IMG/VR virus record: IMGVR_UViG_3300025671_000040 | Reading direction: 5' to 3' (one strand) | Length of the DNA: 64,000 bases | Source: an uncultured virus (IMG/VR IMGVR_UViG_3300025671_000040) | Lineage: Duplodnaviria > Heunggongvirae > Uroviricota > Caudoviricetes | Program-made: the position numbers and the translations under genes | Notes under the pieces: generated by a model | The model's database searches: none | What the model was told of the DNA's origin: nothing | Seen by the model: only the letters and a program-made list of their open reading frames with translations | In this document: positions 131 through 14,181 of the stretch, one piece after another | How the letters are laid out: each line of letters begins with the position of its first letter | Position numbering within the stretch: the stretch's first letter is position 1

Positions 131-139
131 TCCTGCCCC

Positions 140-1322: not shown

Positions 1323-1342
1323 CACCCCGCCCCGGTGTCACC

Positions 1343-1764: not shown

Positions 1765-1875
1765 GGTGCACCTCCCGATGCGTTGCCTCCCCCCTGTGGG
1801 GAGGTCTGCGACTACCCTATCACCGTTCGCACGGGTTGCGGTGGATGTCGTGCCAGAAATCTGAGAGATTTCGCC

Positions 1876-2030: not shown

Positions 2031-2105
2031 CACACTTCGGGCCGGGACGCAAGTCCACCCGTCACCCCACCCCGACGGATGCCGGGGCGGGGTTTGGGGG
2101 AGGTC

Positions 2106-2384
2106 TTACTTGAACATCCAGGCAGCGCCTTCTAGCTCAGATGCGATCCCGTCGAGGTCATCCCCGAGAACATCGACCAGGGCGGCGGTGACGTTGGCAC
2201 GCATGACGGCGGGGCCACCAGTCTCGGGGCGCTCGCAGGGGCGGCGGTTGAACAGGGTTCCGCAGCCTGATCCGAAGAAGATCATGCGGGCGTCTTGGTA
2301 GTCCTCGGCGTTGCCCTCTTCCACGGCATCGTGGAGGGACTCAACGTCCCAGGGTTCTCCGCAGGTGGTGCAGTAAATATCCAT
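2106..2384 (-). CDS. Zinc-binding phage protein (MDIYCxxCGEPWD)
   Basis: CTTC plus two later Cys; GGAGG RBS. Confidence 0.8.
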   Translation of the reverse strand: MDIYCTTCGEPWDVESLHDAVEEGNAEDYQDARMIFFGSGCGTLFNRRPCERPETGGPAVMRANVTAALVDVLGDDLDGIASELEGAAWMFK

Positions 2385-2440
2385 TGTGTCTTTCCTCCCG
2401 CCGAGTTTCCTCGGCGTATTGCTTTGGGTCGGGTGTGCCC

Positions 2441-2489
2441 CGAGGTGTGGGGCGAGGTGTGGGGCGAGGTGTGGGGCGAGGTGTGGGGG
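2441..2489 (+). repeat. G-rich tandem repeat (CGAGGTGTGGGG)x4
   Basis: Four 12-mers read directly. Confidence 0.95.
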
Positions 2490-2566
2490 AACACCCTGCG
2501 CCGGATTGCAAGTCGCTCCCGTAGCCCCGACCCGGTGGGGGAACCGGGCCGGGGTCGGGGGAGGAA

Positions 2567-2884
2567 TCAGTCGGTAAAGCCGCCCAGGTTGTCCTCGGCG
2601 GACTGCTCGGCGGCACGCTCGATGGCCTCGGCCTCGGCGTCGTCGGCGTCGGCGTCGGTGGCCTCGGCCTCGATGCGCTGGCCGTGGAGGTCGTAGCCCG
2701 GAACCAGGCAACCCTCTAGGGCGGCGAGCATGTTGGCCCAGTAGCAGCGCTGGCGGTCACGCTCGACTCGTGCGGTTTCCTCGGCCTGCATGGCCTTCTT
2801 CTCGGCCTTGGTGAGGAAGCCGCCCGTGCGGTTGCGGCTGATGGGCCGACGCTGCATCGGGATGTGAACAATCTTGGTATCCAT
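2567..2884 (-). CDS. Hypothetical protein with basic N-terminus and acidic C-terminus
   Basis: GGGAGGG RBS; promoter ending TACACT; N-terminus similar to 5097..5264. Confidence 0.75.
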   Translation of the reverse strand: MDTKIVHIPMQRRPISRNRTGGFLTKAEKKAMQAEETARVERDRQRCYWANMLAALEGCLVPGYDLHGQRIEAEATDADADDAEAEAIERAAEQSAEDNLGGFTD

Positions 2885-3014
2885 GGTGAACCCTCCCGGT
2901 TCTGGATCCTGCCCCTATCTGCGGGGCACCGACTCGGTGTCGGTAGAACCGAGTGTACACCCATTCGGACGGGTTGCGGCACATTTCACCAAAGAAATTT
3001 CGACCAATGTTTCG

Positions 3015-3166
3015 GTTCCACGATGCGGAACTGTTCCACCATGCGGAACGAACGCCTGTTCGCCCCGGCGGACGCTCGGCGGACGCTCGGCGGCAGGCGG
3101 GCTGCGCCCGGGTGGGCACCTCCCGGCACGCACGCGCTTGTCTATCCCTACCTATGGTGTCCCTAG
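3015..3166. repeat. Operator cassette copy 3
   Basis: Palindromes 3015-3031 and 3033-3049; SOS-like box 3049-3062; ATGGTGTCCC at 3154. Confidence 0.9.
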
Positions 3167-3249
3167 CACAGGTCGGGCCAGAATGCAAGTCGGCCCCGGC
3201 CCCGGCGCCCCGGCCCGGAGTGAACCGGACCGGGGCGAGGGGGGAGGAT

Positions 3250-3714
3250 TCAGTAGCTGCCCTCCTGCACGTGAAGGGGAAGGGCGGCGATGTGGTCGTT
3301 GATGTCCCAACCTTCACGGTATGCCATTTCCTGCTCGGTGAGGATGCGGTGGCGACGGGCGAGCCAGTCGTTGTCGTCCGGCCCTTCGGCCCACTCGCAG
3401 GCTTCCAGCCAGCTGTTGACGGCGCGGCGGAAGTTGGCGTAGTTGTCGGCACCGAGCAGCGACTGGTCGCCGTTCAGGATGCGACCGGCGAGCGAGTCCA
3501 GATGGGCCGTATCACCCGAGGTGTTGGCAGCCTTGGCCGATGCGATCAGCATCAGCAGCTCGCTGCGACGGCTGATGTAGCGCTCAAACGCCGTCACCAT
3601 GTGCTCGGCAGCCTCGGTCGGCGTCGGATCAACGTCGCCCATCTCGCAGGCGTGGCACATCCAGTCGATGCCGCAGCCGCCGACGTAGACGCCGTGCTTG
3701 CAGTGGTCAATCAT
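3250..3714 (-). CDS. Phage protein with N-terminal CxH...CxxC zinc motif
   Basis: CKHGVYVGGCGIDWMCHACEMG; RBS and promoter upstream. Confidence 0.8.
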   Translation of the reverse strand: MIDHCKHGVYVGGCGIDWMCHACEMGDVDPTPTEAAEHMVTAFERYISRRSELLMLIASAKAANTSGDTAHLDSLAGRILNGDQSLLGADNYANFRRAVNSWLEACEWAEGPDDNDWLARRHRILTEQEMAYREGWDINDHIAALPLHVQEGSY

Positions 3715-3817
3715 GATTTCTCCCAGGCGGTGGAGGCGGACCGTCCGGCCCCAACGCCATTCACTAGAGTACCGGCTGCTGCACCGTTTTCCACCCTGTC
3801 AGGTGAGATATTTCAGC

Positions 3818-3958
3818 GTTCCGTATCGTGGAACGGGTCCACCATGTGGAACGGCGAGCGGAAGCGGACGGAGGCGGGCGGAGGCGGGCGCCGCCGGAGG
3901 CGGGTCAGCATCTCCCGCTCAAAGGTTGTGTGTCTATCCCTGCCGATGGTGTCCCCAG
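3818..3958. repeat. Operator cassette copy 4 (no SOS box)
   Basis: Palindromes 3818-3834 and 3836-3852; GGGTCAGCATCTCCCG at 3902; ATGGTGTCCC at 3946. Confidence 0.9.
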
Positions 3959-4002
3959 CGGGGGCGAGGGCCGTAGCCCCCACCCCCAGGGGGGAGGTGA
4001 TC

Positions 4003-4116
4003 CTAGTCCTTGTAGCTACCGATGCCGGGCGGCTTGCAGCGACCGGATGAGACGTCGCGGAGTTCGTAGCGCACAGTGCCGATCCTCAGTTCGTCGGGCG
4101 GGGTGTCAGCGGTCAT
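4003..4116 (-). CDS. Tiny hypothetical protein (MTADTPP...)
   Basis: Overlapping start/stop with the upstream gene; shared junction sequence. Confidence 0.45.
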   Translation of the reverse strand: MTADTPPDELRIGTVRYELRDVSSGRCKPPGIGSYKD

Positions 4117-4282
4117 CGGTCGGTTCCCACTTCACGCCATCGACCCACACATGAACCGATCGCCCCGTCGGGGATGTGGTGACCTCGACCTTGCGGCCAA
4201 CGTCGATCACGGTTTGGTGGTAGGTGCCGCCTCGGTGCGTGAACGAGAACAGCCGTACGTCGGGTGTCTGGTCAGCGGTCAT
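4106..4282 (-). CDS. Small hypothetical protein (MTADQTP...)
   Basis: Translationally coupled; shared junction motif. Confidence 0.6.
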   Translation of the reverse strand: MTADQTPDVRLFSFTHRGGTYHQTVIDVGRKVEVTTSPTGRSVHVWVDGVKWEPTDDR

Positions 4283-4553
4283 CGGACAGGGCCTCTCTCC
4301 ATCGGTCTTGGTTCGTCTGGATGAACTTCGGGGCGGGCCTGTCGAACGCTTCCAACATCCCCAACAGGTGCGGGATGTCTCCCGATCGAGCGAGGTTGAC
4401 CTCCGCCTGTAGCCGTTCGATCTCGGCGGCGGCCATCTGTCGCAACGACTTAGGTCGGTCTGCGGCATCCGTCCAAGAGCAGTCGCACCCCAGCGACGCC
4501 GTATCGGCAAGCAGCCACTTCACGATTTCGCCGGGTGTCGGGGTGTCAGTCAT
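4272..4553 (-). CDS. Hypothetical protein (MTDTPTP...AAEIERLQA)
   Basis: Shares modules with 4546..4770. Confidence 0.65.
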   Translation of the reverse strand: MTDTPTPGEIVKWLLADTASLGCDCSWTDAADRPKSLRQMAAAEIERLQAEVNLARSGDIPHLLGMLEAFDRPAPKFIQTNQDRWREALSDDR

Positions 4554-4770
4554 CGGTCGGCTCCTCGGTAGCGGCGGCGAGGTACTCAGCATTGCGCTCA
4601 CGTATCGACGACATCCCGGTCATCCGAAACGCTGCGTTCTCCCACCGCTTGCACCTCGCCTGTAGCCGTTCGATCTCGTCGGCGGCAGCGATTGCATCTG
4701 CGTCGGGATAACCGCCGTGGACCTTGACTCGCAACCGTTCCACGAGGTCGGGTGTCGGGGTGTCAGTCAT
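4546..4770 (-). CDS. Hypothetical protein (DLVERLR...AADEIERLQA)
   Basis: Common small-phage-protein motif; RBS upstream. Confidence 0.7.
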   Translation of the reverse strand: MTDTPTPDLVERLRVKVHGGYPDADAIAAADEIERLQARCKRWENAAFRMTGMSSIRERNAEYLAAATEEPTDD

Positions 4771-4773
4771 CGG

Positions 4774-4926
4774 TCACTCTCCCTCCTCAGGGGCATAGAA
4801 CTGCCCCCATTCCTTGTCGGTCTTGCGGTTCGCAAGAACCCTGCTGGCAGCGGGGCCGTAGACCCCACGGGCGCACTCCACCCTCTCCTGATGGCGACGT
4901 GCGTCGCTCCTGTCAAACTGAGCCAT
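4774..4926 (-). CDS. Small hypothetical protein (50 aa)
   Basis: AGGAGG RBS; promoter TTGGTT...TACACT upstream. Confidence 0.6.
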   Translation of the reverse strand: MAQFDRSDARRHQERVECARGVYGPAASRVLANRKTDKEWGQFYAPEEGE

Positions 4927-5096
4927 CTCGGCCCTCCTCTTCCTTACCACTTCCTAGTGTAGCAGGTTCTGTCAGGAAACCAACGTCCGGGCCGGATTTC
5001 TTGGCAGAAAGTTTCGGGGCGCCGATGCGGGGTCGGTGCCTCCCGGCCAGGGGCGGGCCGGGGTGCGGGGCGGGGTGTGACCCCCGCCCCTGGGCG

Positions 5097-5264
5097 CTAG
5101 CCCTGCGCCTGGTTCAGGCGCTCGCACCGGGCGTGATCCCGGGCGACCCGCTGGGCCTCTGCGGCCTCCAGGCGCTCCCGCATCTCACGGGTGAGGAACG
5201 CTCCGGGACCGAACGCCGCCCGACTGATCTTGCGGCGCTTGGTTGGCACGTAGATGATGGACAT
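5097..5264 (-). CDS. Small basic protein, paralogous to the N-terminus of 2567..2884
   Basis: GGGAGG RBS; promoter TTGTTG...TAGACT. Confidence 0.65.
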   Translation of the reverse strand: MSIIYVPTKRRKISRAAFGPGAFLTREMRERLEAAEAQRVARDHARCERLNQAQG

Positions 5265-5444
5265 TTGCAGACCTCCCAGTCTGTCGGTGGTGGCTCCTCC
5301 GGCCACCTGTAGAACAGTCTACAGGTCACGGGACGAACAACAACCTTTCACCCAAACTTTTCCAGAAACTTTTTGCCGGGGTCAGGGCCTCCCGGTGCAC
5401 GGCATCAGGGCCGGGGTGGACCATCCACCCCGACCCCCTGCCCG

Positions 5445-5735
5445 TCACCCGTAGAGGGCGGCGTAGGTGAGGACCGGCACCCGGTCGGGGCCATCGGTCG
5501 GCGTTTCCGACCAGCCCTGCAGGATGCGGGACACCCCGGCCTTGTCGGACTGCGATCCCCAACCCGGCGAGATCGCCGCTACGTCACGGTCATCGGACAC
5601 CGTGAACATCAGGGTCGAGTAGTGCCACACGTCGGTCTGTCCGGCGTGAGTGTGGGCCACCCAGGTGGACGCCTTCACGTCACGGTCGGGGTTGGCCCGA
5701 CTCACGTCAAGCAGTTTCGGCAGTGAAGTCTGCAC
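5445..5735 (-). CDS. Hypothetical protein
   Basis: AGGAGG RBS before GTG; promoter TTGTGA-N17-TACCGT. Confidence 0.7.
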   Translation of the reverse strand: MQTSLPKLLDVSRANPDRDVKASTWVAHTHAGQTDVWHYSTLMFTVSDDRDVAAISPGWGSQSDKAGVSRILQGWSETPTDGPDRVPVLTYAALYG

Positions 5736-5831
5736 GGTACCTCCTAGTGCCCTGAGGTCGATCCCCAGCGGCACCCCCTACGGTACCGGCCTGCACACCC
5801 TTTCACAACGTGCTAGCTGAGATTTTTTTAC

Positions 5832-5972
5832 GTTCCGCATTGTGGAACAGTTCCACCATACGGAACAGGCGACAAACAGGCGGACGACAGCGGCGAGGCG
5901 GGCGAGCAGCCCGAGGGTGAGACCCTCCCGCCCCCATACGCGCTTGTCTATCAGAGCCTATGGTATCCCTAC
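5832..5972. repeat. Operator cassette copy 5 (no SOS box)
   Basis: Palindromes 5832-5848 and 5850-5866; ATGGTATCCC at 5960. Confidence 0.9.
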
Positions 5973-5998
5973 GGGTACCGGGGGCCGGTCGTCGGCGC

Positions 5999-6220
5999 TC
6001 ACAGCTGGTACCCCTCGCTCACGATCAGCTCGGCCCAGTCCGAGACGAGGGCGTCGAGGCGCTCGGTCAGCGGGGCGGGCACGGCCTCGGTGACGAGGCG
6101 CAGCGCCACTGACAGCGGGGTGTCAGCGTTCCAGATCTCCTCCTCGACACGCTCGATGTCGTGCTCGATGGCGGCTCGCCTCTCGTACGGGGCTTCGAGT
6201 CGGGCGTCGTAGCTGCTCAT
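5999..6220 (-). CDS. Hypothetical protein
   Basis: ATGA overlap with the upstream gene. Confidence 0.65.
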   Translation of the reverse strand: MSSYDARLEAPYERRAAIEHDIERVEEEIWNADTPLSVALRLVTEAVPAPLTERLDALVSDWAELIVSEGYQL

Positions 6221-6417
6221 CGCCCACGCTCCGGCAGGACCGTCAGCTCGTCGTGCAGGAAGGGGACCGAGGTCGGCTCCCCGTCGATGCCGAGGGCGGC
6301 GTCCTTGAGGGACACGGGGGTCACCTGATAGTAGCCCGGGATCCGGGACAGGCCGGTCACGATGCCGGTCCACCCGGCGTCGGTGCGGACTCGGAGGTTG
6401 AGGAGAGATGTCTTCAC
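6217..6417 (-). CDS. Small SH3-like beta protein (inferred)
   Basis: AAAGGA RBS; promoter GTGGAA-N17-TACACT. Confidence 0.6.
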   Translation of the reverse strand: MKTSLLNLRVRTDAGWTGIVTGLSRIPGYYQVTPVSLKDAALGIDGEPTSVPFLHDELTVLPERGR

Positions 6418-6489
6418 GGTGGTGGTTCCTTTGGTATGGGTGATGGTATCTGTATCGGTCAGTGTATCGGGGAACTTGAGGACTTCCAC

Positions 6490-6505
6490 TGTGACGTGTG
6501 TCACA
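6490..6505. promoter_or_regulatory. CRP/GlxR-type site
   Basis: TGTGA-CGTGTG-TCACA, abutting the -35 of a minus-strand promoter. Confidence 0.65.
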
Positions 6506-6511
6506 GGGCTG

Positions 6512-6832
6512 TCAGTAGCACCGGTCGCACGAGCAGTGCGGGCGGCGGTGCGACTCGCACCGGTCGCTCGCCTCGTGAGCCGGACCGTGCGGGTCGGTGC
6601 CGTCCTTGCGTGCGTCGCACGACGGGCACCCGGCGACGAACACGTTGTACCGGGAGCGCTGGATCTCCAGGTCACCGACCGGCAGGTAGCGGTACTCCTT
6701 GCCGGACTTCGCCGTCGCCATGACGGCGCCGTCCTGGGCGTTGCGTGCCACGCACTTGATGACACGGTCAGCGTGCGGTGCGTCCGTCACCAGGACGTCG
6801 TTCACTTGCAGCTCGGTGGGATGGATCATCAT
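6512..6832 (-). CDS. Phage protein with C-terminal Cys/His zinc motif
   Basis: CPSC...H...CES...HCSCDRC; AAGGAG RBS. Confidence 0.8.
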   Translation of the reverse strand: MMIHPTELQVNDVLVTDAPHADRVIKCVARNAQDGAVMATAKSGKEYRYLPVGDLEIQRSRYNVFVAGCPSCDARKDGTDPHGPAHEASDRCESHRRPHCSCDRCY

Positions 6833-7142
6833 CGGTTGTTCTCCTTGGGGAAGGGCGACCGTGCGCCGTGGATGAGATGGATGGTGCGATTGAGGGTGGT
6901 CGGGTCCGGGCGCTCGGCGTAGATCGTCGAGCAGTGGGCGGGGTAGCCCGTGTTCTGGGCCTGGTTGGACTTCATTGACAACTCCTTGTCAGTAGAGGCG
7001 GGTCATCGCCGCCTTGATGATCTGTTCGGATGAGAACATGGGTACTCCCTGACGGTGAGAACGGACGGTCCGTCATCAGCGCCACCCTTTAGGGTAGGGC
7101 ATCGAGCACGGTTTACCAACGTGCTAGGTAAGATTTCTTTGC

Positions 7143-7274
7143 GTCCCACAATACGGAACTGTTCCACATAGTGGAACGAACAAATGTTCGCCTCGACCGA
7201 AGGGGCGCCGCCGGAGGCGGGCCAGCATCTCCCGCTCAAAGGTTGTGTGTCTATCACTACCTATGGTGCCCCAC
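7143..7274. repeat. Operator cassette copy 6
   Basis: Palindromes 7143-7159 and 7161-7177; CGAACAAATGTTCG at 7177-7190; ATGGTGCCCC at 7263. Confidence 0.9.
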
Positions 7275-7363
7275 GGCAGGGGTCGCCCCCTCCGAGACTC
7301 ACCGGGTGCGGTGAGTCTCGAAGAGGACGTACAGCCCGATACCGATGGCCCAGATGAAGATAC

Positions 7364-7540
7364 TCACTTCTTCGCCTTGCTCTTGGAGGGTCGGAACTCT
7401 CCGTTCGGCCAAAGGTACTTGCCGTCCCGCTTGCCGTGGTTCTCACCACGGTGCGGCTTGCAGAACAGGCACTGCCCGTCCTTGAGGCGGGCCTTGTTGC
7501 GAAGCCGCTTCGTTTCGGCGGCGTCATTTCCGGACCACAT
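7364..7540 (-). CDS. Small basic CxxC protein (CLFCKPHRGEN)
   Basis: 58-aa ORF translated by hand; GGAAGG RBS and promoter upstream. Confidence 0.65.
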   Translation of the reverse strand: MWSGNDAAETKRLRNKARLKDGQCLFCKPHRGENHGKRDGKYLWPNGEFRPSKSKAKK

Positions 7541-7816
7541 AGCTTGTTTCCTTCCCTTGTGTCCTATTACTTAGGGTAGCGGTTTCTGCGAAGAAACCAA
7601 CGCCTAGGTAACATTTTCTTTTGAGAGCCTTACTTGCCCTCAGCCTCAGGGATGATCCAGAACTCTCGTTCGTCGTCCATTAGAGAAGCCCCCATACGGC
7701 TCGGGTGGCGAGTGCAATCAGAATCCACAAGGGGATGCTGAACACGGTCGCCCAGAAGATTCCTACCAAGACGTTTCCGTCTTCGTCCATAGCTCTGTCC
7801 TTCATTGTGCTTCCTC

Positions 7817-8008
7817 TCAGTGGGCGCAGCCGGTTTGGCCGCACGACCCACAATAGTCGTCGTCCGGGATTGGGAGCAAGTCTTTCACGCTCACTCGGTG
7901 TCGGTAGTCATCGCCAACAGCAACCACAAGCACGTCACCGCTCATGTCTGCCAGGCAGGAATCGTCAGCGTCCCACCAGAACTCATCGTCCGGGTCAGGC
8001 TCTGCCAT
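7817..8008 (-). CDS. Small acidic protein with C-terminal CxxCGQxGCxH
   Basis: VGDD...YCGSCGQTGCAH motif; start uncertain. Confidence 0.65.
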   Translation of the reverse strand: MAEPDPDDEFWWDADDSCLADMSGDVLVVAVGDDYRHRVSVKDLLPIPDDDYCGSCGQTGCAH

Positions 8009-8076
8009 CGGGAACCCACGACCCTCAGGTACCCCCGGAGGGGGAGCCGAGGGCCGAAGCCCCCGACCCCGCCGGG

Positions 8077-8313
8077 TCAGTCTCGGCGTTGGGTTTCTTC
8101 CCAAGCCTCGAAGTACCGTTCGCCCCAGGCGCTGTCGATCCACTGTTCGAGCGTGTCGATGACATCAGGGGAGTGGTAGCTGACATCGTTGTTGTCGATG
8201 GCCCGCTCGTAGTCCCAGGCGGCGTGGTGCTTGAGCCAGTGCTCGTACGCCTTGTCCCAGTATTCCTGGGAGGTGTTGGTGGTGAGCCATGCGTCGTAGT
8301 TGGGGAGTGTCAT
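8077..8313 (-). CDS. Trp-rich acidic hypothetical protein
   Basis: GGAGG RBS and promoter upstream. Confidence 0.7.
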   Translation of the reverse strand: MTLPNYDAWLTTNTSQEYWDKAYEHWLKHHAAWDYERAIDNNDVSYHSPDVIDTLEQWIDSAWGERYFEAWEETQRRD

Positions 8314-8501
8314 ACTGTTAGGGCCTCCTACCCTGCGGGAGCGGTCGCTCCACTTCTTCTAAGCGTAGCGGGGCAGGAACCGTTTCCCACCCCGCTAGCT
8401 AAAGTTTTTCGGAAACTATCCGAGGTTCGGCACGACCCCGAGCAGAAACGCTAGCGTCCGCCGAAACTGACGGTCAGTGACTCCCGGAGGGAGGTAGCCC
8501 A

Positions 8502-8774
8502 TCAGAGCACCCCCGTCCAGTCGTTGCTGGCACGCTCCGGCACCCGGCTCCACTCGAAAGCGATACGGATCGCATCACCCATCGTGGAAAGCTCAGCCAC
8601 CGTCACCGGCTCACCGTCCTCGTTGGTCTTGGCCGTGTCCACGATCGTGTACTCCAACCACTGCCAGTCCTCGGGGGTCCAGTGGACCACCGGCTGGAAC
8701 CGGTTGGCCTTGCTCACCGTCATGGCGATGGCGTGAAGGTGGGCGTGGTACATGGTGGTCTTCGTGTCTTCCAT
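8502..8774 (-). CDS. Hypothetical protein
   Basis: GGAGAGG RBS. Confidence 0.7.
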   Translation of the reverse strand: MEDTKTTMYHAHLHAIAMTVSKANRFQPVVHWTPEDWQWLEYTIVDTAKTNEDGEPVTVAELSTMGDAIRIAFEWSRVPERASNDWTGVL

Positions 8775-8789
8775 GTTCCTCTCCTGTGC

Positions 8790-8969
8790 TCAGCGGCCCC
8801 AGTTGGCCGGGTTGTTGTAGTTGATCCCGGGCGGGTCCATCGTGACGCACTCACCGGTACGGTGGTAGGCGACGACTTCCTGCCGGGTCGGGTTCAACAG
8901 CGGCAGCGGACGCTTGTACGGGTCGGCGTTCACCGACTCAAACGTGCCGCAGGTCTTGCAGATGCTCAT
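8790..8969 (-). CDS. Small CxxC protein
   Basis: CKTC...H...C; promoter TTGGTG-N17-TACCTT. Confidence 0.65.
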   Translation of the reverse strand: MSICKTCGTFESVNADPYKRPLPLLNPTRQEVVAYHRTGECVTMDPPGINYNNPANWGR

Positions 8970-9058
8970 GGTTTCTTCTCCCTTGTTCGGGCTGGCTGCC
9001 CTGTGTAAACCAAGGTAGCGGGCTGGCATCGAAACACCAACCCGCTACCTAAAGTTTC

Positions 9059-9391
9059 TTAGCCCCAGCTACGGTGGACCTCTCGGACCGTTTCCCGCCC
9101 GTCGTGCTCCGAGATGTAAACCTCGGCGTCGTCGGGCACATCCACGACCCTGAGTCGGGAGTAGCTGCCGCTGGCCTCGTCGCACAGCAGTTCGACCACT
9201 TCGACCAGAGCGGGCAAGCTGCGGTACTCCAGCTCGTGGGACTCCATGCCCTGACTCCAGGGGTTAGTGTTCCAGTAGCCGAAGCCGTACTCGGTGTCGT
9301 CCGCTTCGACGTAGACCGAGCCGAGGCGGCGGTGCGCCGCATCGCTAAGGCTGAAGCCTCCCCAGCACGTGTTGATGACCATCTTGGGCAT
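9059..9391 (-). CDS. Conserved phage protein (VINxCWGGFSLS ... EHDGxE)
   Basis: Recognisable motif of a widespread phage hypothetical family; AAGGAGG RBS. Confidence 0.85.
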   Translation of the reverse strand: MPKMVINTCWGGFSLSDAAHRRLGSVYVEADDTEYGFGYWNTNPWSQGMESHELEYRSLPALVEVVELLCDEASGSYSRLRVVDVPDDAEVYISEHDGRETVREVHRSWG

Positions 9392-9481
9392 GGTCGGTGC
9401 CTCCTTCCGAGGGACGTTCCCTCGCCATTCGATAGTACCGGCTGAAACACGGTTTCCAACCTCTCAGCCAAGATTTTTTGT

Positions 9482-9613
9482 GTTCCGTATTGTGGAACAG
9501 TTCCGCATAGTGGAACGAACAAATGTTCGCCTCGGCGGGTGCCCGCCAGCGGGGGCGGGTCAGCGTCTCCCGCTCCTACTCTGTGTGTCTAACAGAGCCT
9601 ATGGTGTCCCTAC
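9482..9613. repeat. Operator cassette copy 7
   Basis: Palindromes 9482-9498 and 9500-9516; CGAACAAATGTTCG at 9516-9529; ATGGTGTCCC at 9601. Confidence 0.9.
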
Positions 9614-9695
9614 GGGCAAACCCCGTAGCCTACTGGCTCACTCCCGAACCCCCCGGACCCCGCATACGCAGGGCCGGGGGATAGGGGGAGGTAAG

Positions 9696-9807
9696 TGCCC
9701 CAGCAGAGAGTCGAACTCTGCCCTCTACTAGCGACATCCAGTCTCACGGGGACAACCGCCGAACCGGTGCCTGTCCACGCTAGTAGGTTCCCAGCCTTTG
9801 GTGGAGC
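9696..9807 (-). ncRNA. tRNA-like RNA with the anticodon loop replaced by a ~45-nt insert
   Basis: T-arm CAGAG-TTCGACT-CTCTG; acceptor GCTCCA(C)/(C)TGGGGC-A; D-like AGG-CTGGGAA-CCT; stem ACTAGCG/CGCTAGT. Confidence 0.6.
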
Positions 9808-9896
9808 ATGGTGAGCAGTTTATCCTCATGCTCAGGAGGATACCGTACTGTTGTATTACCAGGGCCGCACGCCCGCCCTGCTCTCTACGGCTTTAT

Positions 9897-10157
9897 CTAT
9901 GCCGATGTTGAGAACTCGTCCCGGCTCATGGGCCGACCGTCGAATGCGATGGCGTAGGGCGTGGGATCATAGTTGTCTAGCATCTCTGCGATCTTCATCC
10001 CGAGGTCGATCATAAGCTCTTCCCCGTCGGGGATCATCTGAGCTACGAAGTCGGTCAGGGTGTTGATGCTGTCAGAGACTTCCTTGGGGATGGAAACAGA
10101 GCCGGAGCTACCGCCGCCATGCCAGAGGTCACGTTCGATTCGTTTAGCGTTTTTCAC
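9897..10157 (-). CDS. Hypothetical protein
   Basis: AGGAGG RBS; promoter TTGGTG-N17-TAACAT. Confidence 0.75.
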   Translation of the reverse strand: MKNAKRIERDLWHGGGSSGSVSIPKEVSDSINTLTDFVAQMIPDGEELMIDLGMKIAEMLDNYDPTPYAIAFDGRPMSRDEFSTSA

Positions 10158-10237
10158 AGTTCCTCCTGTGTGTTGCTTGCAGTAACCCCCATGTTAGCGG
10201 GCCGGTGAGGGAACACCAACCCGCTACCGGGGATTTA

Positions 10238-10462
10238 TCAGAAGACCGGATCGAAGTCCCGAGGATCGCTAATCTCTCCCCGACCTTCGTAACGGTAACA
10301 ACCACCGCCGTCACCGCCACAGCCGTAAGCGTCGCAGATAGGGCAGGTGGGCGGCTCCATCAGGTACGCCTCGTACTGTTCATCGTACTCGGCTTCCTGA
10401 TCGGCTTCCATATCCGCCAGATCCTTACGGATCTCGTTGAGATCGTCTTCGTGAATATCCAC
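10238..10462 (-). CDS. Acidic protein with CxxC...C...C motif
   Basis: AGGAGG RBS before GTG; promoter upstream. Confidence 0.7.
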   Translation of the reverse strand: MDIHEDDLNEIRKDLADMEADQEAEYDEQYEAYLMEPPTCPICDAYGCGGDGGGCYRYEGRGEISDPRDFDPVF

Positions 10463-10549
10463 GCTTCCTCCTAGCTGGCTACTGTGCTTCACCAGCAATA
10501 CCTAGGGTAGCGGGCTGGGGACCAAACCCCAACCCGCCACCTAAGATTT

Positions 10550-10852
10550 TTAGAGTTCGTCCTCATCCTCGAACAGATGCGAGGTCAACACAACGAACAG
10601 TTGCATCAGATCCTTAGCGTCATCCTGATCGACAGCCATACCGTTGACCATGCTGAAGTACGCCATCTTCTCACGTCCCTCGAACATATCGAACGCTTCC
10701 ATCTCGTCCTCAACCTCACCAGACTCCAGAGCTTCCTCTCGGAGAGCCTGGATGCCTTGACCGATCATCCGGGCGCCCGTCAGCATCAACAGGCCCCGAT
10801 CGTTCAGATCAAGGTAGGTAGCGTCCTCTCGGACGATCGCACCCTCAGCCAT
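10550..10852 (-). CDS. Highly acidic hypothetical protein (possible DNA mimic)
   Basis: D/E-rich ORF coupled to the upstream gene. Confidence 0.65.
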   Translation of the reverse strand: MAEGAIVREDATYLDLNDRGLLMLTGARMIGQGIQALREEALESGEVEDEMEAFDMFEGREKMAYFSMVNGMAVDQDDAKDLMQLFVVLTSHLFEDEDEL

Positions 10853-11027
10853 GATCGGTCACCCGGCCTCGGCAAGCCTTACGGTCGGCCTGCTTCTTAC
10901 GGTCGGTGAACGTGGCAGCACGCTGGCGGCGACCGTCCCGAAGGGCGTCCACATACTCCTGACGGAGCAGGTCAGACATGATCTGCCCCTGCGTCCTCTG
11001 CTTCTTGTTCTTCTTAGTCTTAGCCAT
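10845..11027 (-). CDS. Small basic protein (DRKKQADRKACRG), probably leaderless
   Basis: TACAAT -10 lies 6 nt before the ATG. Confidence 0.65.
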   Translation of the reverse strand: MAKTKKNKKQRTQGQIMSDLLRQEYVDALRDGRRQRAATFTDRKKQADRKACRGRVTDHG

Positions 11028-11031
11028 AGTT

Positions 11032-11172
11032 TTATTGTACCTCGTTCTTACGGGGAGGGTTGGTACCTCCCGCTTCGCAGGGTTGCTGGGCGTGACGGCC
11101 ACCGGCCCTGCAATCGCAGAACCGGCAGCGCACATCACTCCCGTCGTAGCAGTAGTGGTGACCCATGTCCAT
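11032..11172 (-). CDS. Small Cys/His protein, probably leaderless
   Basis: TTGGGA...TACCCT promoter 7 nt before the ATG; CRFCDC motif. Confidence 0.5.
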   Translation of the reverse strand: MDMGHHYCYDGSDVRCRFCDCRAGGRHAQQPCEAGGTNPPRKNEVQ

Positions 11173-11225
11173 GACGACAAGGGTACAGGGGAGAGGCTGG
11201 TTTCCCAACCTCTCCCCTGAGATTC

Positions 11226-11627
11226 TCACCGCTTCGGCTGGGTCACCTTGAGGGCGACGACATCCTTCACGGTGATGGCCTCGGCCACCTCGTCGGCGGT
11301 CATGCGGCCAGCCGCAATCTCGCCGTCCACCAGCGCCATGTCGGCCACTCGGCGGCTGACCCGCTGGAACCTGCCCTTGGCGAGCAGACCCTTCAGGGTC
11401 ACCGTGTCGAGCGAACGACGCTGCTGCTTCACCAGCGCCACCTTGGTGCCGTCCTGCAGGAGGACGGACTCGGTGCCGGTGGCCTTGAACGCACGCTCGG
11501 CTGCTTCGACCGCTGCCTTGGCGTCAGCCAGAGCAGTACGAGCCTCCACGACCGTGATGGCGAGCCGTTCGGCCACCTTGTCGGCGTTGACGGTGATGTT
11601 GGTGGTTGGGATGTGGAGCTGTTCCAC
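11226..11627 (-). CDS. Hypothetical phage protein (coiled coil plus beta hairpin)
   Basis: AAGGAG RBS; promoter TTGGGA-N17-TACCCT. Confidence 0.75.
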   Translation of the reverse strand: MEQLHIPTTNITVNADKVAERLAITVVEARTALADAKAAVEAAERAFKATGTESVLLQDGTKVALVKQQRRSLDTVTLKGLLAKGRFQRVSRRVADMALVDGEIAAGRMTADEVAEAITVKDVVALKVTQPKR

Positions 11628-11707
11628 GTTGTGTCTCCTTCCGTTGACGACATAACCCAGGGTACAGGTGGGAGGTCAGTTTCCCAACCTCCCACCTAAA
11701 GTTTTTT

Positions 11708-12100
11708 CTAGACCGTGGCTACCCGGCGGATCTCCTCGGCCCATTCCAGGGCGTCGATCTCTTGTGCCCAGGGCTTCAGCATGCTGTACGGGTTCCACAT
11801 GGTGACGGTGGGCCTCTCGCCCCAGTCACCCCAGCGGATCGACGGCGAGTCATACTGCAGGTCGCCGGGGATGTTCTCGTCGCCTGCGATGATGCCGTAA
11901 CCGGTGGCGCCACCCTCACACCCGGTCAGGGTGTCGAAGATGATCCGGGCTGCGTAGAACTCGTCGTTCAGACGACCCTCCGCCGCAGCCTTGATGATTC
12001 CGTCAGCCAAGATTTCCTTGACTCGGTAGCCGCTCCAATGCGTGTAGTAGTGGACAACGTGTGACCGCTGTTCGATTCGGATAGTTGCTCGGTCCCCCAT
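11708..12100 (-). CDS. Conserved phage protein (MGDRA...YTHW.G)
   Basis: Motif typical of actinophage hypotheticals; AAGGAGG RBS. Confidence 0.8.
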   Translation of the reverse strand: MGDRATIRIEQRSHVVHYYTHWSGYRVKEILADGIIKAAAEGRLNDEFYAARIIFDTLTGCEGGATGYGIIAGDENIPGDLQYDSPSIRWGDWGERPTVTMWNPYSMLKPWAQEIDALEWAEEIRRVATV

Positions 12101-12323
12101 CGGGGTACCTCCTTGGTTGGTGAGCTTTCTAGAGTAGGGGGTGTCGCCCCCGAAACCAACCTCGTAGGTGAGATTTGTTTCGGGGGCTAGCCCCTCCCGG
12201 CTAGGCGATGCTGACCTGCTTGTGGTGCAGCATCGCCACCGGGGCCTCGGTGACCGGCTCCCCGTCGTCGGCCCGGACGGACGGCGGTGCGGGCCGGGGA
12301 GTCGGTCCCCCCGGCCCTAGCCG

Positions 12324-13220
12324 TCAGGCTGCGGCCAGCAGCATCTCCGAGGCTCGGAGCGTGAGGCCCTGGGCCTTCTCCGGGTCACTCACGACCCGGA
12401 CCTGCTTGATGGCCTGCTGCTTGCCCTTCGTGGCGGTGTGGTACTCGAAGGACTGCACCGCCTGGTAGAGCGAGTAGGCGTTCTCCCCGAAGGTGTCGGC
12501 CTCTTCGCCGTAGAAGTAGAGGATGCCGTCACGGCGACGCTCGGCGTGGTTCACAGCCTTGGGGCTGGCGTCCGGGTCGGTGATGAGCGGAGCAACCTCG
12601 TCCAGCACTCGGGCCTTGAGGCTCGGGGTCATTGCCAGACCCTTGAGCATCGTGGCGTTGCTGATGAACCGGTCGAATGCCTCGGCAGCCTGAGCCATGA
12701 TGCGGGCCTTGCTGAACAGCATCTCGTCGTGGTTCTTGGTCCGCTTCTGGGCAAGCTGGAGCGTGCCCTGGCTCTCCTGGTTGGTGCAGAAGGGACGGAA
12801 CGAGAACCCGATGGCACGGGTGCTGAACACGCTGTTCAGGCTGGCCGTGTACATGACGTTGCGGGTGAGCGTGTCGCCGTCACCGAAGGTGTACGGCTCC
12901 TCGATCTCCTGCGTCATGACCAGCACGGCACCGTGATCGTAGGTCTGGATGCCGGTGACGCTGTTCGGGAACATCGCCTCGGCGGTGTTGAGCAGCGACT
13001 CGTACGATCCAGCGTGGTAGCTGTTGCTGACGCCTGCGTTCAGGACGGCCTGGGAGCCATCGGCGTACTCTCGGTACACCGTGAACGTGCCCTCGTCCAC
13101 GCTCCCGTTGGGGAGAATGGTGCCGGTGACCTTCGGCTCAAACAGAGCCTCGCAGTCGAGCGCAGCGTCGATGGCGTTAGCGCCCTCGTACTGCTTGTTG
13201 TTGCTGAGCATGTAGCCCAT
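12324..13220 (-). CDS. DUF932/DUF945-family phage/plasmid protein
   Basis: RPFCTNQ...KRTKN resembles the family RxxCxN...RHT motif; NAYSLYQAVQSFEYH C-terminus; GAGGAGG RBS. Confidence 0.75.
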   Translation of the reverse strand: MGYMLSNNKQYEGANAIDAALDCEALFEPKVTGTILPNGSVDEGTFTVYREYADGSQAVLNAGVSNSYHAGSYESLLNTAEAMFPNSVTGIQTYDHGAVLVMTQEIEEPYTFGDGDTLTRNVMYTASLNSVFSTRAIGFSFRPFCTNQESQGTLQLAQKRTKNHDEMLFSKARIMAQAAEAFDRFISNATMLKGLAMTPSLKARVLDEVAPLITDPDASPKAVNHAERRRDGILYFYGEEADTFGENAYSLYQAVQSFEYHTATKGKQQAIKQVRVVSDPEKAQGLTLRASEMLLAAA

Positions 13221-13526
13221 AGTGGTGACCTCCTCGGGTCGGGTTGTTGACATTCACTACCGTATCGGCTCAGGCAAGGTTTCCCAACCTCGCCAGCCAA
13301 GTTTTTCCGAGAAAGTTTTTCCCGGCTGCTATCGGCAGCACTCAATACCGTACCTAGAGTTTCACCCTTTACCAACCTCGCCAGCCAAGTTTTTCCGACG
13401 GCCTGCCGGGAGGCCCCGACGGGGGTCCGGCCTACCGGCGAGAGCGTGCCCGCCCCCGAAGGGGTCGAGCCGCCCTGCCTGCCTCCGGTGGAGGAGAGGT
13501 GCTTTCTAACCTGACCTATGGTGTCC

Positions 13527-13826
13527 CTACCAGAAGATTCCTGTCTGGGGAGTTACCACCTGCCAGTCGTCAACGCAGTTCTGTGCGGCCCAGTCGCCAG
13601 CGTCTTCTGCCGTGATGAACGGACCGAACAGGGTGATGCCGTCGTGTGCGTTGCCGACAGAGACGATATGGATCGGTCCGTCCGTCGGGACAGCGTGCTT
13701 GTCCATAGCGTCTTGCAACTCCTCAAGATCGTCGGGATCGACTTTCTCTAGAGCATGGGCAGGAAGCCAAACGCACTCCCTGCTTGCCATGATGGTTCCC
13801 GTACCGGGATGAACAATGAAATCCAC
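13527..13826 (-). CDS. Hypothetical protein
   Basis: AAAGGAG RBS; part of an operon. Confidence 0.7.
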   Translation of the reverse strand: MDFIVHPGTGTIMASRECVWLPAHALEKVDPDDLEELQDAMDKHAVPTDGPIHIVSVGNAHDGITLFGPFITAEDAGDWAAQNCVDDWQVVTPQTGIFW

Positions 13827-13827
13827 G

Positions 13828-14181
13828 TTAGGCTCCTTTCGCCCAAACTTGTAGGTAGTTGAAGATCATCAGATCACGCATGGCGTCGGTGGGTTCATCG
13901 CCCCAGCTAAGACCACCAGAAAGAGCGTACAGGGTGTCGCCCTCTTGCCAGTAGCCCACATCTCGCCTGAAGTCATCGTAGGCCACCTCAATGGCTTCGC
14001 TGACACGCTCCGCAACGTCCTGAGCGGAGAAAGGATCTAAGGCATCTTCCCAGTCGAACATCTCATCGCTGTAGTCGATGAACGATTGCATCTGACCGTC
14101 GTCCATCTCTCCGAGATAGTTCTGCCAGTATTCTTTGGGTTGTGTGATGTCCGCTGTAGCGAACACAAATGTTGCTCCCAT
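13828..14181 (-). CDS. Acidic hypothetical protein (SGGLSWGDEPT)
   Basis: AAAGGAG RBS; part of an operon. Confidence 0.75.
   Translation of the reverse strand: MGATFVFATADITQPKEYWQNYLGEMDDGQMQSFIDYSDEMFDWEDALDPFSAQDVAERVSEAIEVAYDDFRRDVGYWQEGDTLYALSGGLSWGDEPTDAMRDLMIFNYLQVWAKGA

What the first reader, a model, noticed from the sequence alone, without database searches (positions are those of the whole stretch)
9696..9807. tRNA-mimic RNA with a structured insert in place of the anticodon loop
Seen on the minus strand: acceptor-like stem, short D-arm with GG, a 7-9 bp stem enclosing about 45 nt that contains GGACA/TGTCC, and a canonical T-arm with a TTCGACT loop. There is no anticodon loop, no CCA, and it is too short for tmRNA. 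Inference: a decoy for anticodon nucleases or tRNA-binding defence proteins, a Y-RNA-like molecule, or an RNase P/Z processing element in the early region.
Basis: partly seen in the sequence, partly recalled or inferred. Interest (0 to 1): 0.7.

Follow-up and report, generated by a model that had tools for sequence, protein, structure and literature searches.

The report
Anticodon-less tRNA look-alike behind phage pseudoknot
A freshwater phage carries a 112-base RNA gene shaped like the top half of a tRNA, with a folded 44-base insert where the anticodon should be, placed five bases after a small widespread RNA knot in a slot that other phages fill with a real tRNA, so it most likely serves as a cutting handle for tRNA-processing enzymes.

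Summary
On the minus strand, 9807-9696 has an acceptor stem (6 of 7 pairs), a 14-nt GGG loop instead of a D arm, a perfect 9-bp stem enclosing 44 nt, a canonical T arm (CAGAG-UUCGACU-CUCUG), discriminator A and no CCA. This combination appeared in 0 of 300 composition-matched shuffles. It is not a tRNA, tmRNA or Y RNA by ARAGORN or Rfam.

Five bases upstream lies a covarying H-type pseudoknot that Rfam lacks and that occurs in at least 124 metagenome stretches. In 24 of 31 IMG/VR loci selected for a T loop behind this knot, a genuine tRNA starts 3-5 nt after it. In seven other contigs the slot holds a tRNA look-alike or odd tRNA instead.

One of these (L304, an unrelated 43% GC phage) has the same insert topology with compensatory changes in every helix.

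Best reading: a non-decoding tRNA chassis cut by RNase P, which defines RNA ends beside the knot and may display a conserved insert. No cleavage has been shown, and expression is only partly supported. I rate it a new variant of tRNA-like processing elements (mascRNA, t-elements). Relatives also carry tag-less mini-tmRNAs, a different and known kind.

The parts
9812..9839 (-). Upstream H-type pseudoknot motif, ccU-CCUGAGCA-U-GAGG-AU-AAACUGCUC-A. S1 is CCUC:GAGG. S2 is UGAGCA:UGCUCA. The A-rich linker is AUAAAC.
   Evidence: The exact pattern occurs in at least 124 metagenome stretches. In 127 distinct instances the middle S1 pair is G:C 69, A:U 28, U:A 15, C:G 12, wobble 2, mismatch 1. S2 variants UGGGUA/UACCCA, UGGGCA/UGCCCR and UGAACA/UGUUCA keep pairing. 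No Rfam match.
9808..9812 (-). 5-nt spacer ACCAU between the knot and the element, with U at position -1. 9812 (A) may also close S2.
   Evidence: Read from sequence. Genuine tRNAs start 3-5 nt after the same motif in 24 of 31 IMG/VR loci and at 3, 4 and 5 nt in 3 metagenome loci.
9801..9807 (-). Acceptor 5' strand GCUCCAC.
   Evidence: Pairs with 9703-9697 at 6 of 7 positions.
9787..9800 (-). D-replacement loop CAAAGGCUGGGAAC (GGG, no stable D stem).
9725..9786 (-). Long stem P (9786-9778 with 9733-9725, 9 perfect pairs) enclosing the 44-nt insert 9777-9734. The insert comprises a 7-nt bulge UGGACAG (9777-9771), helix H2 (9770-9762 with 9743-9734), an internal loop CG/GA, and apical hairpin GCGG-UUGUCC-CCGU (9759-9746). 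An alternative pairing joins bulge GGACA with loop UGUCC.
   Evidence: MFE fold. The same topology appears in L304 by an independent fold. Pairs changed on both sides and still paired: P 5 of 7, H2 6 of 8, H3 1 of 4, bulge:loop 4 of 5.
9721..9724 (-). Variable stretch AGGG.
9704..9720 (-). T arm CAGAG-UUCGACU-CUCUG.
   Evidence: Together with the 3' acceptor strand, 22 of 23 bases equal a tRNA-Arg(CCG) of an Anaerolineaceae MAG.
9696..9703 (-). Acceptor 3' strand CUGGGGC plus discriminator A (9696). The next bases are CUU, so no CCA is encoded.
9648..9682 (-). Strong GC hairpin directly after the element, a candidate U-tract-less terminator or 3' stabiliser.
   Evidence: Folding 9700-9630 gives -44.4 kcal/mol, z = -3.9, with 0 of 200 shuffles as stable. 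L190's look-alike is also followed by a hairpin.
9843..9891 (-). Hairpin between the upstream ORF (9897-10157, minus strand) and the knot. RNA-library contigs stop at its 3' foot.
   Evidence: Fold. Metatranscriptome contigs span 9845-10154, 9848-10085 and 9845-10068, all ending at 9845-9848.

Best explanation
The element is a non-decoding tRNA chassis. It keeps the acceptor stem, the T arm and an elbow-forming GGG loop, which are the parts read by RNase P, 3'-end trimming enzymes and the CCA-adding enzyme. A rigid 9-bp helix carrying a folded 44-nt domain replaces the D and anticodon arms.

It occupies a conserved module, [H-type pseudoknot]-3 to 5 nt-[tRNA], that many phages have.

Inferred mechanism:
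1. The region is transcribed through the knot into the element, ending at the GC hairpin 9682-9648.
2. RNase P cuts between U9808 and G9807.
3. This leaves an upstream RNA ending in the knot plus a 5-nt tail, too short a single strand for 3' exonucleases to load on, so the end would be capped.
4. It also releases a tRNA-shaped RNA of about 112 nt that is trimmed and CCA-tailed like a tRNA.

Shown here: the structure, its non-random nature, the module and its spacing, and the covariation of the knot and of the insert. Inferred: transcription of the whole unit, the RNase P cut, capping of the upstream end, and stability of the released RNA.
For: 1. The composite fold occurs 0 times in 300 shuffles.
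2. The pseudoknot 5 nt upstream is a real, covarying, widespread RNA.
3. In 31 IMG/VR loci picked only for a T loop 36-66 nt behind the knot, 28 have a real tRNA within 11 nt and 24 have one at 3-5 nt. These are Asp x19, Trp x4, Arg x2, Cys, Asn and Gly. Three more occur in 126 metagenome instances.
4. In the same slot other contigs hold a look-alike or odd tRNA: L190, L212, L283, L295, L303, L304 and L307. So the slot tolerates loss of decoding but not loss of the top half.
5. A model built from the window element alone scores those look-alikes at 25.3, 20.8 and 12.7 bits, against 11.4-13.5 bits for true tRNAs in the same loci.
6. L304, in a phage sharing no protein with this one apart from one 28-residue stretch, has the same helices with compensatory changes.
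7. The base at -1 is U and +1 is G. The best weak Rfam hit for this element and for L283 is mascRNA, the RNase P/Z-released tRNA-like RNA (18.3 and 19.9 bits).
8. Here and in L190 a strong hairpin follows and nothing else, so the cut has no downstream gene to free.
9. RNase P is known to cut tRNA-like structures in non-tRNA transcripts (PMC4919922, passages read).
Against: - No cleavage or mature end has been seen.
- Only one RNA-library contig (9743-9950) touches the element, and none covers its T arm. The tool warns that such libraries can hold DNA.
- Three RNA contigs stop at 9845-9848, upstream of the knot. This fits an mRNA end at the hairpin 9891-9843 rather than at the knot.
- Here the knot is 58 nt from the nearest stop codon, not the usual 10-18 nt.
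- A mere handle would not need a conserved 44-45-nt insert with two alternative pairings, so the insert probably does something more.
- The acceptor has a C.C mismatch next to the T stem.
- The insert family rests on two sequences.
- The capping role of the knot is inference. The exonuclease tail-length argument is recalled, not tested.
Confidence: 0.45

Rival explanations
1. Natural 'tRNA scaffold'. The functional part is the 44-nt insert, a conserved two-state fold. The tRNA chassis only secures processing, stability and perhaps modification, as in engineered tRNA-scaffold RNA expression. The target (protein, RNA or small molecule) is unknown.
For: - Window and L304 share insert topology: a 7-nt bulge, H2, an internal loop flanked by UCGGCG and CGUGA, and H3 beginning G.U, C-G, G-C.
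- In both, the bulge is complementary to the apical loop (GGACA:UGUCC versus UUAGGA:UCCUAA), and in each the alternative hairpin encloses 17 nt.
- The two phages are unrelated.
Against: - Other occupants of the slot have only 9-13-nt loops (L190, L283, L295) or no stem (L212), and L307 has a different insert.
- No complementary target of 11 nt or more exists in the window.
- No Rfam family matches the insert.
- The comparison rests on two sequences.
Confidence: 0.3
2. Decoy for a protein that binds the tRNA top half or elbow. One candidate is SmpB, as with tag-less mini-tmRNAs. Another is a host defence or toxin that acts on acceptor ends.
For: - The architecture equals a tmRNA tRNA-like domain: acceptor, D-like loop, long helix, 3-4 nt, T arm.
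- Related phages carry true tag-less mini-tmRNAs. L005 scores 38.3 bits and L215 scores 53.4 bits on Rfam tmRNA.
- The window-only model scores L215 at 21.2 bits.
- The DS6A phage form is reported to inhibit host tmRNA (PMC11915505, passages read).
Against: - Position 70 is G, giving U3.G70, so the alanine identity pair G3.U70 is impossible.
- The Rfam tmRNA model gives no match at E <= 10.
- The D-like loop lacks the GG-UUCGAC-type sequence seen in L215 and in the tmRNA consensus.
- This reading does not explain the coupling to the knot.
Confidence: 0.1
3. A decaying tRNA gene: a former first tRNA of the knot-tRNA module that lost its D arm and took an insertion in the anticodon loop, with no present function.
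For: - The slot normally holds a tRNA.
- T arm plus 3' strand is 22 of 23 identical to a real tRNA-Arg.
- Related phages at about 70% protein identity lack the element.
Against: - Decay should hit all parts alike. Here the T arm is perfect, the 9-bp stem is perfect and the acceptor pairs 6 of 7.
- Several independent look-alikes show the same pattern of intact top half and non-canonical bottom.
- L304 keeps the insert's helices through compensatory changes.
Confidence: 0.1
4. A recombination relic (attP-like 3' tRNA fragment) or a chance fold in GC-rich DNA.
For: - The T arm plus 3' acceptor alone resemble an integration core.
- The window's left 14 kb has foreign-looking GC content.
- A T arm alone is expected 0.83 times per window by chance.
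Against: - No integrase was found among the 64 ORFs scanned.
- A 5' acceptor strand and a long stem are present.
- The composite fold occurs 0 times in 300 shuffles.
- The same design recurs behind the same knot elsewhere.
Confidence: 0.03

Closest known systems
MALAT1 / MEN-beta 3'-end module (triple helix followed by tRNA-like mascRNA, cut by RNase P and RNase Z)
   Same: A compact A-rich tertiary fold lies immediately upstream of a non-decoding tRNA-like structure. The RNase P cut would leave the fold at the 3' end and release a small tRNA-shaped RNA. Rfam mascRNA-menRNA is the best, though weak, hit for this element (18.3 bits) and for L283 (19.9 bits). Background comes from PMC4919922 (passages).
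   Different: The host is a phage, not a mammal. The upstream fold is an H-type pseudoknot, not a U-rich triple helix. The scores are far below the gathering score of 42.5. The element is twice the length of mascRNA and carries a 44-nt insert. No cleavage has been shown.
t-elements of plant mitochondria (tRNA-like processing signals)
   Same: An acceptor plus T-arm mimic without decoding ability, placed in a non-tRNA transcript to mark ends made by RNase P/Z (PMC4919922, passages).
   Different: A different kingdom and a different enzyme type (protein-only RNase P there). There is no coupled pseudoknot and no conserved insert.
Tag-less (TLD-only) mini-tmRNA of mycobacteriophage DS6A and relatives
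   Same: A phage-borne tRNA-like RNA with acceptor, D-like loop, long helix and T arm, and no anticodon. The host is probably actinobacterial in both cases (WhiB gene here). Relatives of this phage carry such genes (L005, L215). The literature source is PMC11915505 (passages read), which cites Mao et al. 2009 (not read).
   Different: This element lacks G3.U70, the GGGG start and the tmRNA-type D-loop sequence. The tmRNA model does not match it. It is tied to the upstream knot, which L005 is not.
Engineered tRNA scaffold for recombinant RNA expression (Ponchon and Dardel; recalled; only the search-listing abstract of a later paper from that approach, PMC3753655, was seen)
   Same: The anticodon arm is replaced by an extended stem carrying a foreign structured RNA, while the chassis gives processing and stability.
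   Different: That is a laboratory design that keeps a full D arm. Here the D arm is reduced to a loop and the construct is natural.

Membership tests
tRNA (Rfam RF00005; ARAGORN) | Cloverleaf with 7-nt anticodon loop, D stem, and a score at or above 29 bits | tested here: not met
   No RF00005 match, even at E <= 10, over 9400-10100. ARAGORN gives only an aberrant 'tRNA-???' with a 2-base anticodon and a poor acceptor. The two real tRNAs in the window score 61.2 and 52.8 bits.
tmRNA / tag-less mini-tmRNA (Rfam RF00023) | G3.U70 alanine identity pair in the acceptor stem | tested here: not met
   The 3' strand is CUGGGGC, so position 70 is G. The pair is U3.G70 with the 9807 start, and none of the five candidate 5' strands can give G3.U70.
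tmRNA / tag-less mini-tmRNA (Rfam RF00023) | Match to the tmRNA covariance model across the tRNA-like domain | tested here: not met
   No match at E <= 10. Positive controls found here: L005 38.3 bits and L215 53.4 bits, above the cut-off of 47.
tmRNA / tag-less mini-tmRNA (Rfam RF00023) | Architecture: acceptor, D-like loop, long helix in place of the anticodon arm, short linker, T arm | tested here: met
   Segment table. The window-only model hits L215 at 21.2 bits and L005 at 14.3 bits.
mascRNA-menRNA (Rfam RF01684) | Score at or above 42.5 bits; small cloverleaf released by RNase P/Z | tested here: not met
   18.3 bits, E = 0.65, covering only 9697-9753. Cleavage cannot be tested with these tools.
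Y RNA-like (YrlA, Rfam RF02553) | Match to the model: Ro-binding stem plus tRNA-like module | tested here: not met
   No match at E <= 10.
tRNA-like RNase P processing signal (t-element type) | Stacked acceptor and T-stem helix with a canonical T loop; cut by RNase P at +1 | tested here: inconclusive
   The structural half is met: 6 of 7 plus 5 of 5 pairs, UUCGACU loop, U at -1, G at +1. Cleavage cannot be tested here. RNA contigs neither show nor exclude an end at 9807.
Knot-tRNA module of phages (defined here) | Pseudoknot xxU-CCUGAGCA-N-GANG-NN-AAACUGCUC followed within 3-11 nt by a tRNA-shaped RNA | tested here: met
   The motif is exact at 9836-9813 with a 5-nt spacer. The same layout appears in 28 of 31 IMG/VR loci with real tRNAs, and in L190, L212, L283, L295, L303, L304 and L307 with look-alikes or odd tRNAs.
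attP / tRNA 3' fragment of an integrative element | Integrase gene nearby; only the 3' part of a tRNA present | tested here: not met
   No integrase among the 64 ORFs scanned. A 5' acceptor strand and a long stem are present.

The most novel reading that the evidence does not exclude
Phages, many of them WhiB-encoding and so probably actinophages, possess an undescribed two-part RNA system. The first part is a roughly 30-nt H-type pseudoknot that caps RNA ends. The second is a tRNA chassis that recruits RNase P. In this phage and in L304 the chassis has become a natural 'tRNA scaffold' displaying a conserved 44-45-nt two-state domain, that is, a new class of stable phage small RNA whose payload acts on an unknown host or phage target.
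Probability: 0.3. Interest if true: 0.85.

Novelty: new variant of a known kind. Interest (0 to 1): 0.7.

Why it matters
If correct, this shows that phages re-use the host's tRNA-processing machinery to punctuate and protect ordinary transcripts, as mammalian MALAT1 and plant mitochondria do. It would also show that a tRNA body can evolve into a carrier for another folded RNA.

The finding gives a concrete, testable substrate (the cut between 9808 and 9807). It ties this substrate to a widespread, uncatalogued pseudoknot with clear covariation. That combination could explain why some 'odd tRNAs' and unassigned T-arm hits turn up in phage genomes.

It also separates this class from the alanine-type mini-tmRNAs that related phages carry.

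Tried and rejected
- **Named phages.** Window 8500-11000 (blastn) and the DUF932 protein (tblastn) found no match in the INPHARED collection.
- **Nearest record.** The window's own assembly is not held. G001 equals window 23094-63093 only and lacks the region.
- **Exact 26-nt T-arm/acceptor pattern in IMG/VR.** 0 matches.
- **Flanking protein 9059-9391.** One unrelated AT-rich locus with no element.
- **Seven DUF932 relatives (L002-L008) and five of their full contigs (G002-G006).** No element by blastn, nhmmer or the covariance model. The tmRNA-family search of five contigs (those of L002-L004, L007 and L008) found only ordinary tRNAs.
- **Box TAGGGACACCATNGG in IMG/VR.** At least 120 hits, mostly single and probably chance. 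The model found nothing in the 80 loci fetched.
- **Knot plus T loop at other spacings.** At 66-96 nt, one chance hit inside a gene. At 6-35 nt, none.
- **TnpB omega-RNA idea for the knot.** Dropped, because only 3 of 89 upstream ORFs use the motif's UGA as their stop.
- **Knot as a sigma-70 promoter.** Dropped. There is no conserved -35 element, both stems covary, and separate promoter-like sites lie downstream of it in L004, L211, L175 and L182.
- **Twister.** The 13.6-bit Twister-P5 hit at 9842-9889 is noise.
- **Intron or hidden anticodon.** No excision of the insert leaves a U33-containing 7-nt loop (reasoned). ARAGORN's intron mode gives an implausible 77-nt 'intron'.
- **Origin from tRNA-Asp.** No special similarity was seen, but sequence parsing in that script was unreliable.
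- **H-type pseudoknot inside the insert (GGACA:UGUCC plus CACCGG:CCGUG).** Sterically impossible, because the connecting loop would have zero length.
- **Antisense target.** No complement of 11 nt or more in the window.
- **MAFFT alignment of the window element with L304.** Out of structural register, so helices were compared by coordinates instead.
- **RNA-library contigs.** Parts of 9200-10400 without cover are not evidence of silence.
- **Literature.** Searches for the knot's sequence and for phage tRNA-adjacent pseudoknots returned nothing relevant. This covers only the held library. The supplements of PMC10690425 were not opened, and one of its candidate RNAs (DNAVirus_1850, sometimes overlapping tRNA-Asp) could be related.

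Full report
**The thing itself**

Read on the minus strand, 9807-9696 is a 112-nt tRNA-shaped element. In order it has:
- an acceptor 5' strand GCUCCAC;
- a 14-nt loop CAAAGGCUGGGAAC;
- a perfect 9-bp stem CUACUAGCG/CGCUAGUAG around 44 nt;
- a 4-nt variable stretch AGGG;
- a T arm CAGAG-UUCGACU-CUCUG;
- an acceptor 3' strand CUGGGGC and discriminator A, followed by CUU.

The acceptor pairs at 6 of 7 positions, with one G-U and a C.C mismatch next to the T stem. There is no 7-nt anticodon loop anywhere, and no CCA.

ARAGORN reports only an aberrant 'tRNA-???' at 9697-9785, with a two-base anticodon and a poor acceptor. At gathering thresholds Rfam finds nothing here. At E <= 10 the only overlapping hit is mascRNA-menRNA, at 18.3 bits over the T arm and acceptor. 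There is no hit for tRNA, tmRNA or YrlA.

**Is it more than chance?**

The free energy of the whole fold is unremarkable (z = -1.2). A T arm alone is expected 0.83 times per window. Relatives' genomes also show chance T arms, 4 in G005 and 5 in G006.

The combination is what is rare. A T arm with a perfect stem of at least 7 bp ending 3-6 nt upstream is expected 0.0067 times per window. Adding an acceptor gave 0 hits in 300 shuffles.

The 5' boundary is ambiguous from pairing alone, because five upstream stretches can pair with the G-rich 3' strand. Context, described below, selects 9807.

**Where it sits**

- The window is a myovirus-type phage, with a tail sheath, fibres, DNA polymerase and a sigma factor.
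- It encodes a WhiB gene, so the host is probably an actinobacterium.
- Fourteen DNA runs labelled freshwater metagenome hold the region. They may include the source samples.
- The left 14 kb is 60-67% GC, against about 48% for the rest.
- That left part carries small orphan genes on the minus strand and repeated regulatory-looking modules.
- Relatives at about 70% identity in a DUF932 protein lack the element.
- No integrase was found among the 64 ORFs scanned.
- Directly after the element lies a very stable GC hairpin at 9682-9648 (-44.4 kcal/mol, z = -3.9). The next promoter-like box follows at 9612.

**The upstream knot**

A 21-nt stretch just 5' of the element also occurs behind the DUF932 gene of relatives.

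- In 127 distinct instances the base before the pattern is U in 126.
- The next pair inward covaries through all four Watson-Crick types: G:C 69, A:U 28, U:A 15, C:G 12, two wobbles and one mismatch.
- The hairpin loop UGAGCA is complementary to the downstream UGCUCA.
- Natural variants change both sides together: UGGGUA/UACCCA, UGGGCA/UGCCCR and UGAACA/UGUUCA.

It is therefore a compact H-type pseudoknot with an A-rich third loop. Rfam has no match for it, and my literature searches found none.

Its usual setting:
- It usually starts 10-18 nt after a stop codon, in 57 of 89 upstream ORFs of at least 60 aa.
- It is followed by the next gene's ribosome site, a separate promoter-like site, a terminator, or a tRNA.

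**The slot**

Among 126 metagenome instances of the knot, three have a genuine tRNA starting 3, 4 or 5 nt after it.

An IMG/VR scan that only required a T loop 36-66 nt behind the knot gave 31 loci:
- 28 carry a real tRNA within 11 nt of the knot;
- 24 of those start at 3-5 nt;
- by type they are Asp(GUC) x19, Trp x4, Arg x2, Cys, Asn and Gly.

In the window the spacer is ACCAU (5 nt), with U at -1. This fixes 9807 as the 5' end.

**Other look-alikes in the same slot**

| Locus | Description |
|---|---|
| L190 | 75 nt; 9-bp perfect stem with a 10-nt loop; followed by a hairpin |
| L212 | 48 nt; no stem |
| L283 | About 9-bp stem with a 9-nt loop; followed by tRNA-Tyr |
| L295 | 7-9-bp stem with a 13-nt loop; followed by tRNA-Thr |
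| L303 | Near-canonical; tRNA model 28 bits against a cut-off of 29 |
| L304 | 116 nt |
| L307 | 141 nt; perfect acceptor; large different insert; followed by tRNA-Leu |

A covariance model built from the window element alone scores L295 at 25.3, L190 at 20.8 and L283 at 12.7 bits. True tRNAs in the same loci score 11.4-13.5 bits.

Three of five IMG/VR contigs with such elements encode WhiB.

**A structural homolog of the insert**

L304 lies in a 43% GC phage that shares no protein with the window at E < 1e-5, apart from one 28-residue stretch.

Folded on its own, it has the same topology as the window element:
- a long stem;
- a 7-nt 5' bulge;
- an 8-9-bp helix;
- an internal loop flanked by UCGGCG and CGUGA;
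- an apical hairpin beginning G.U, C-G, G-C.

Compared by coordinates, pairs changed on both sides and still paired number:

| Helix | Both sides changed, still paired |
|---|---|
| Long stem (P) | 5 of 7 |
| H2 | 6 of 8 |
| H3 | 1 of 4 |
| Acceptor | 3 of 7 |
| T stem | 2 of 5 |
| Bulge:apical loop | 4 of 5 |

In both RNAs the bulge is complementary to the apical loop (GGACA:UGUCC here, UUAGGA:UCCUAA there). This alternative hairpin encloses 17 nt in each. It cannot coexist with H2 for steric reasons. The pair of folds therefore looks like a conserved two-state element. The sample is two sequences, so this is suggestive and not proof.

**A different class next door**

The relative G005, a complete 117.9-kb genome, has at L005 7012-7090 a 79-nt RNA with GGGGCAG...CUGCUCCA and G3.U70. 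It matches Rfam tmRNA end to end with the middle deleted (38.3 bits).

L215 481-587 does the same at 53.4 bits, above the cut-off.

These are tag-less mini-tmRNAs, a kind already reported for phage DS6A and said to inhibit host tmRNA (PMC11915505, passages read, citing Mao et al. 2009, which I did not read).

The window element shares their architecture. It cannot have G3.U70, because position 70 is G, and it does not match the tmRNA model. I therefore do not file it with them.

**Expression**

Six metatranscriptome runs hold parts of 9300-10300. I laid four of them, all as contigs:
- three identical-sequence contigs cover 9845-10154, 9848-10085 and 9845-10068;
- one covers 9405-9569;
- one covers 9743-9950, which crosses the knot and the first 65 nt of the element.

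None covers the T arm. Three contigs stop at 9845-9848, the 3' foot of a hairpin at 9891-9843. This could be a true mRNA end upstream of the knot, or a limit set by structure on cDNA priming. Contigs cannot tell the two apart, and DNA carry-over is possible. Expression of the element is thus only partly supported.

**Mechanism**

The common denominator of everything found in the slot (Asp, Trp, Arg and other tRNAs, and anticodon-less look-alikes) is the tRNA top half. RNase P, 3' trimming enzymes and the CCA-adding enzyme recognise that half. RNase P is known to cut tRNA-like structures in mRNAs, tmRNA, phage regulatory RNAs, MALAT1 and plant mitochondrial transcripts (PMC4919922, passages).

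I infer that RNase P cuts between U9808 and G9807. This would leave the knot plus a 3-5-nt tail at the end of the upstream RNA and release the tRNA-shaped RNA.

The short, tightly conserved spacer fits a protective cap, because 3' exonucleases need a longer single-stranded tail. That point is recalled knowledge and was not tested here.

Here and in L190 only a hairpin follows the element. The cut therefore has no downstream gene to free, which points either to the upstream end or to the released RNA itself as the purpose.

The conserved insert suggests that in this lineage the released RNA has a job of its own, like a natural version of the engineered tRNA scaffold.

**Against this reading**

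- No cleavage has been shown.
- The RNA contigs end before the knot.
- The knot here is unusually far from a stop codon.
- The number of homologs is small.

**Earlier notes of this scan**

I read these after forming this reading. They describe covarying pseudoknots 3-4 nt before phage tRNAs and after stop codons, and a large phage family of mini-tmRNAs. They agree with what I found, but they are unchecked AI notes. They may or may not concern the same motif, and I do not count them as evidence.

**Verdict**

This is a real, non-random, non-decoding tRNA chassis in a conserved knot-tRNA module. It is most likely an RNase P-processed element, and it may carry a functional insert. I class it as a new variant of tRNA-like processing elements, and as distinct from tmRNA-type mimics.

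Noticed in passing
window 9812-9839 (-); loci L149-L271 and L273-L307: A roughly 30-nt H-type pseudoknot, xxU-CCUGAGCA-N-GANG-NN-AAACUGCUC(A). It occurs in at least 124 metagenome stretches, covaries in both stems, has no Rfam family, and usually starts 10-18 nt after a stop codon. There are up to 5 copies per contig (L154) and 3 in tandem in L307.
   Followed up: partly
window, minus strand, 11 sites from 842-828 to 20081-20067 (for example 9612-9598): A box TAGGGACACCATAGG-N5-GWTAGACA occurs on one strand only. In the high-GC region (sites from 842 to 9612) it is followed by a GC hairpin, one to five CGAAC-N4-GUUCG palindromes and two GUUCCAC-N3-GCGGAAC palindromes. This looks like a repeated promoter/operator cassette. 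The same box follows the knot in an unrelated contig (L169).
   Followed up: partly
window 24338-24404 (-): Pistol self-cleaving ribozyme, Rfam 73.1 bits against a cut-off of 34.5.
   Followed up: no
window 1-14000 versus 14001-64000: A sharp composition change: 60-67% GC on the left and about 48% on the right. The DUF932 gene (12324-13253) has third-position GC of 0.88, although its homologs (about 70% identical in protein) lie in phages with 42-48% GC.
   Followed up: partly
window 3-140, 1237-1326, 2420-2513, 5044-5107: Tandem G-rich repeats of 11-14 nt, of the type GGUGCGGGGCGA or GGUGCGGGGUACCG, in several blocks.
   Followed up: no
L005 7012-7090 (G005); L215 481-587: Tag-less mini-tmRNAs (G3.U70, tRNA-like domain only) in a relative of this phage and in another contig. 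Rfam tmRNA scores are 38.3 and 53.4 bits. L215's has a 9-10-bp helix enclosing 37-39 nt and sits in a tRNA cluster.
   Followed up: partly
window 21318-21701 (-): A WhiB-family transcription factor gene (Pfam E = 3e-16), pointing to an actinobacterial host. WhiB is also present in 3 of 5 other contigs that carry tRNA look-alikes.
   Followed up: partly
window 8364-8407, 9014-9057, 10193-10236, 10506-10549, 11661-11704: A repeated hairpin GGUAGCGGG...CCCGCUACC next to an AAACUU/AAAUCUU stretch at gene starts. At 9029 the predicted AUG lies in the hairpin loop.
   Followed up: no
window 9843-9891 (-): Metatranscriptome contigs from three runs of at least two studies all stop at 9845-9848, the foot of this hairpin. 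A weak Twister-P5 hit (13.6 bits, E = 4.6) overlaps it and is probably noise.
   Followed up: partly
L305/L306 (positions 325-394 after the knot): An 8-bp stem GCGACAUG/CAUGUCGC enclosing about 46 nt lies between the knot and a tRNA-Asn. This is another unassigned folded spacer.
   Followed up: no
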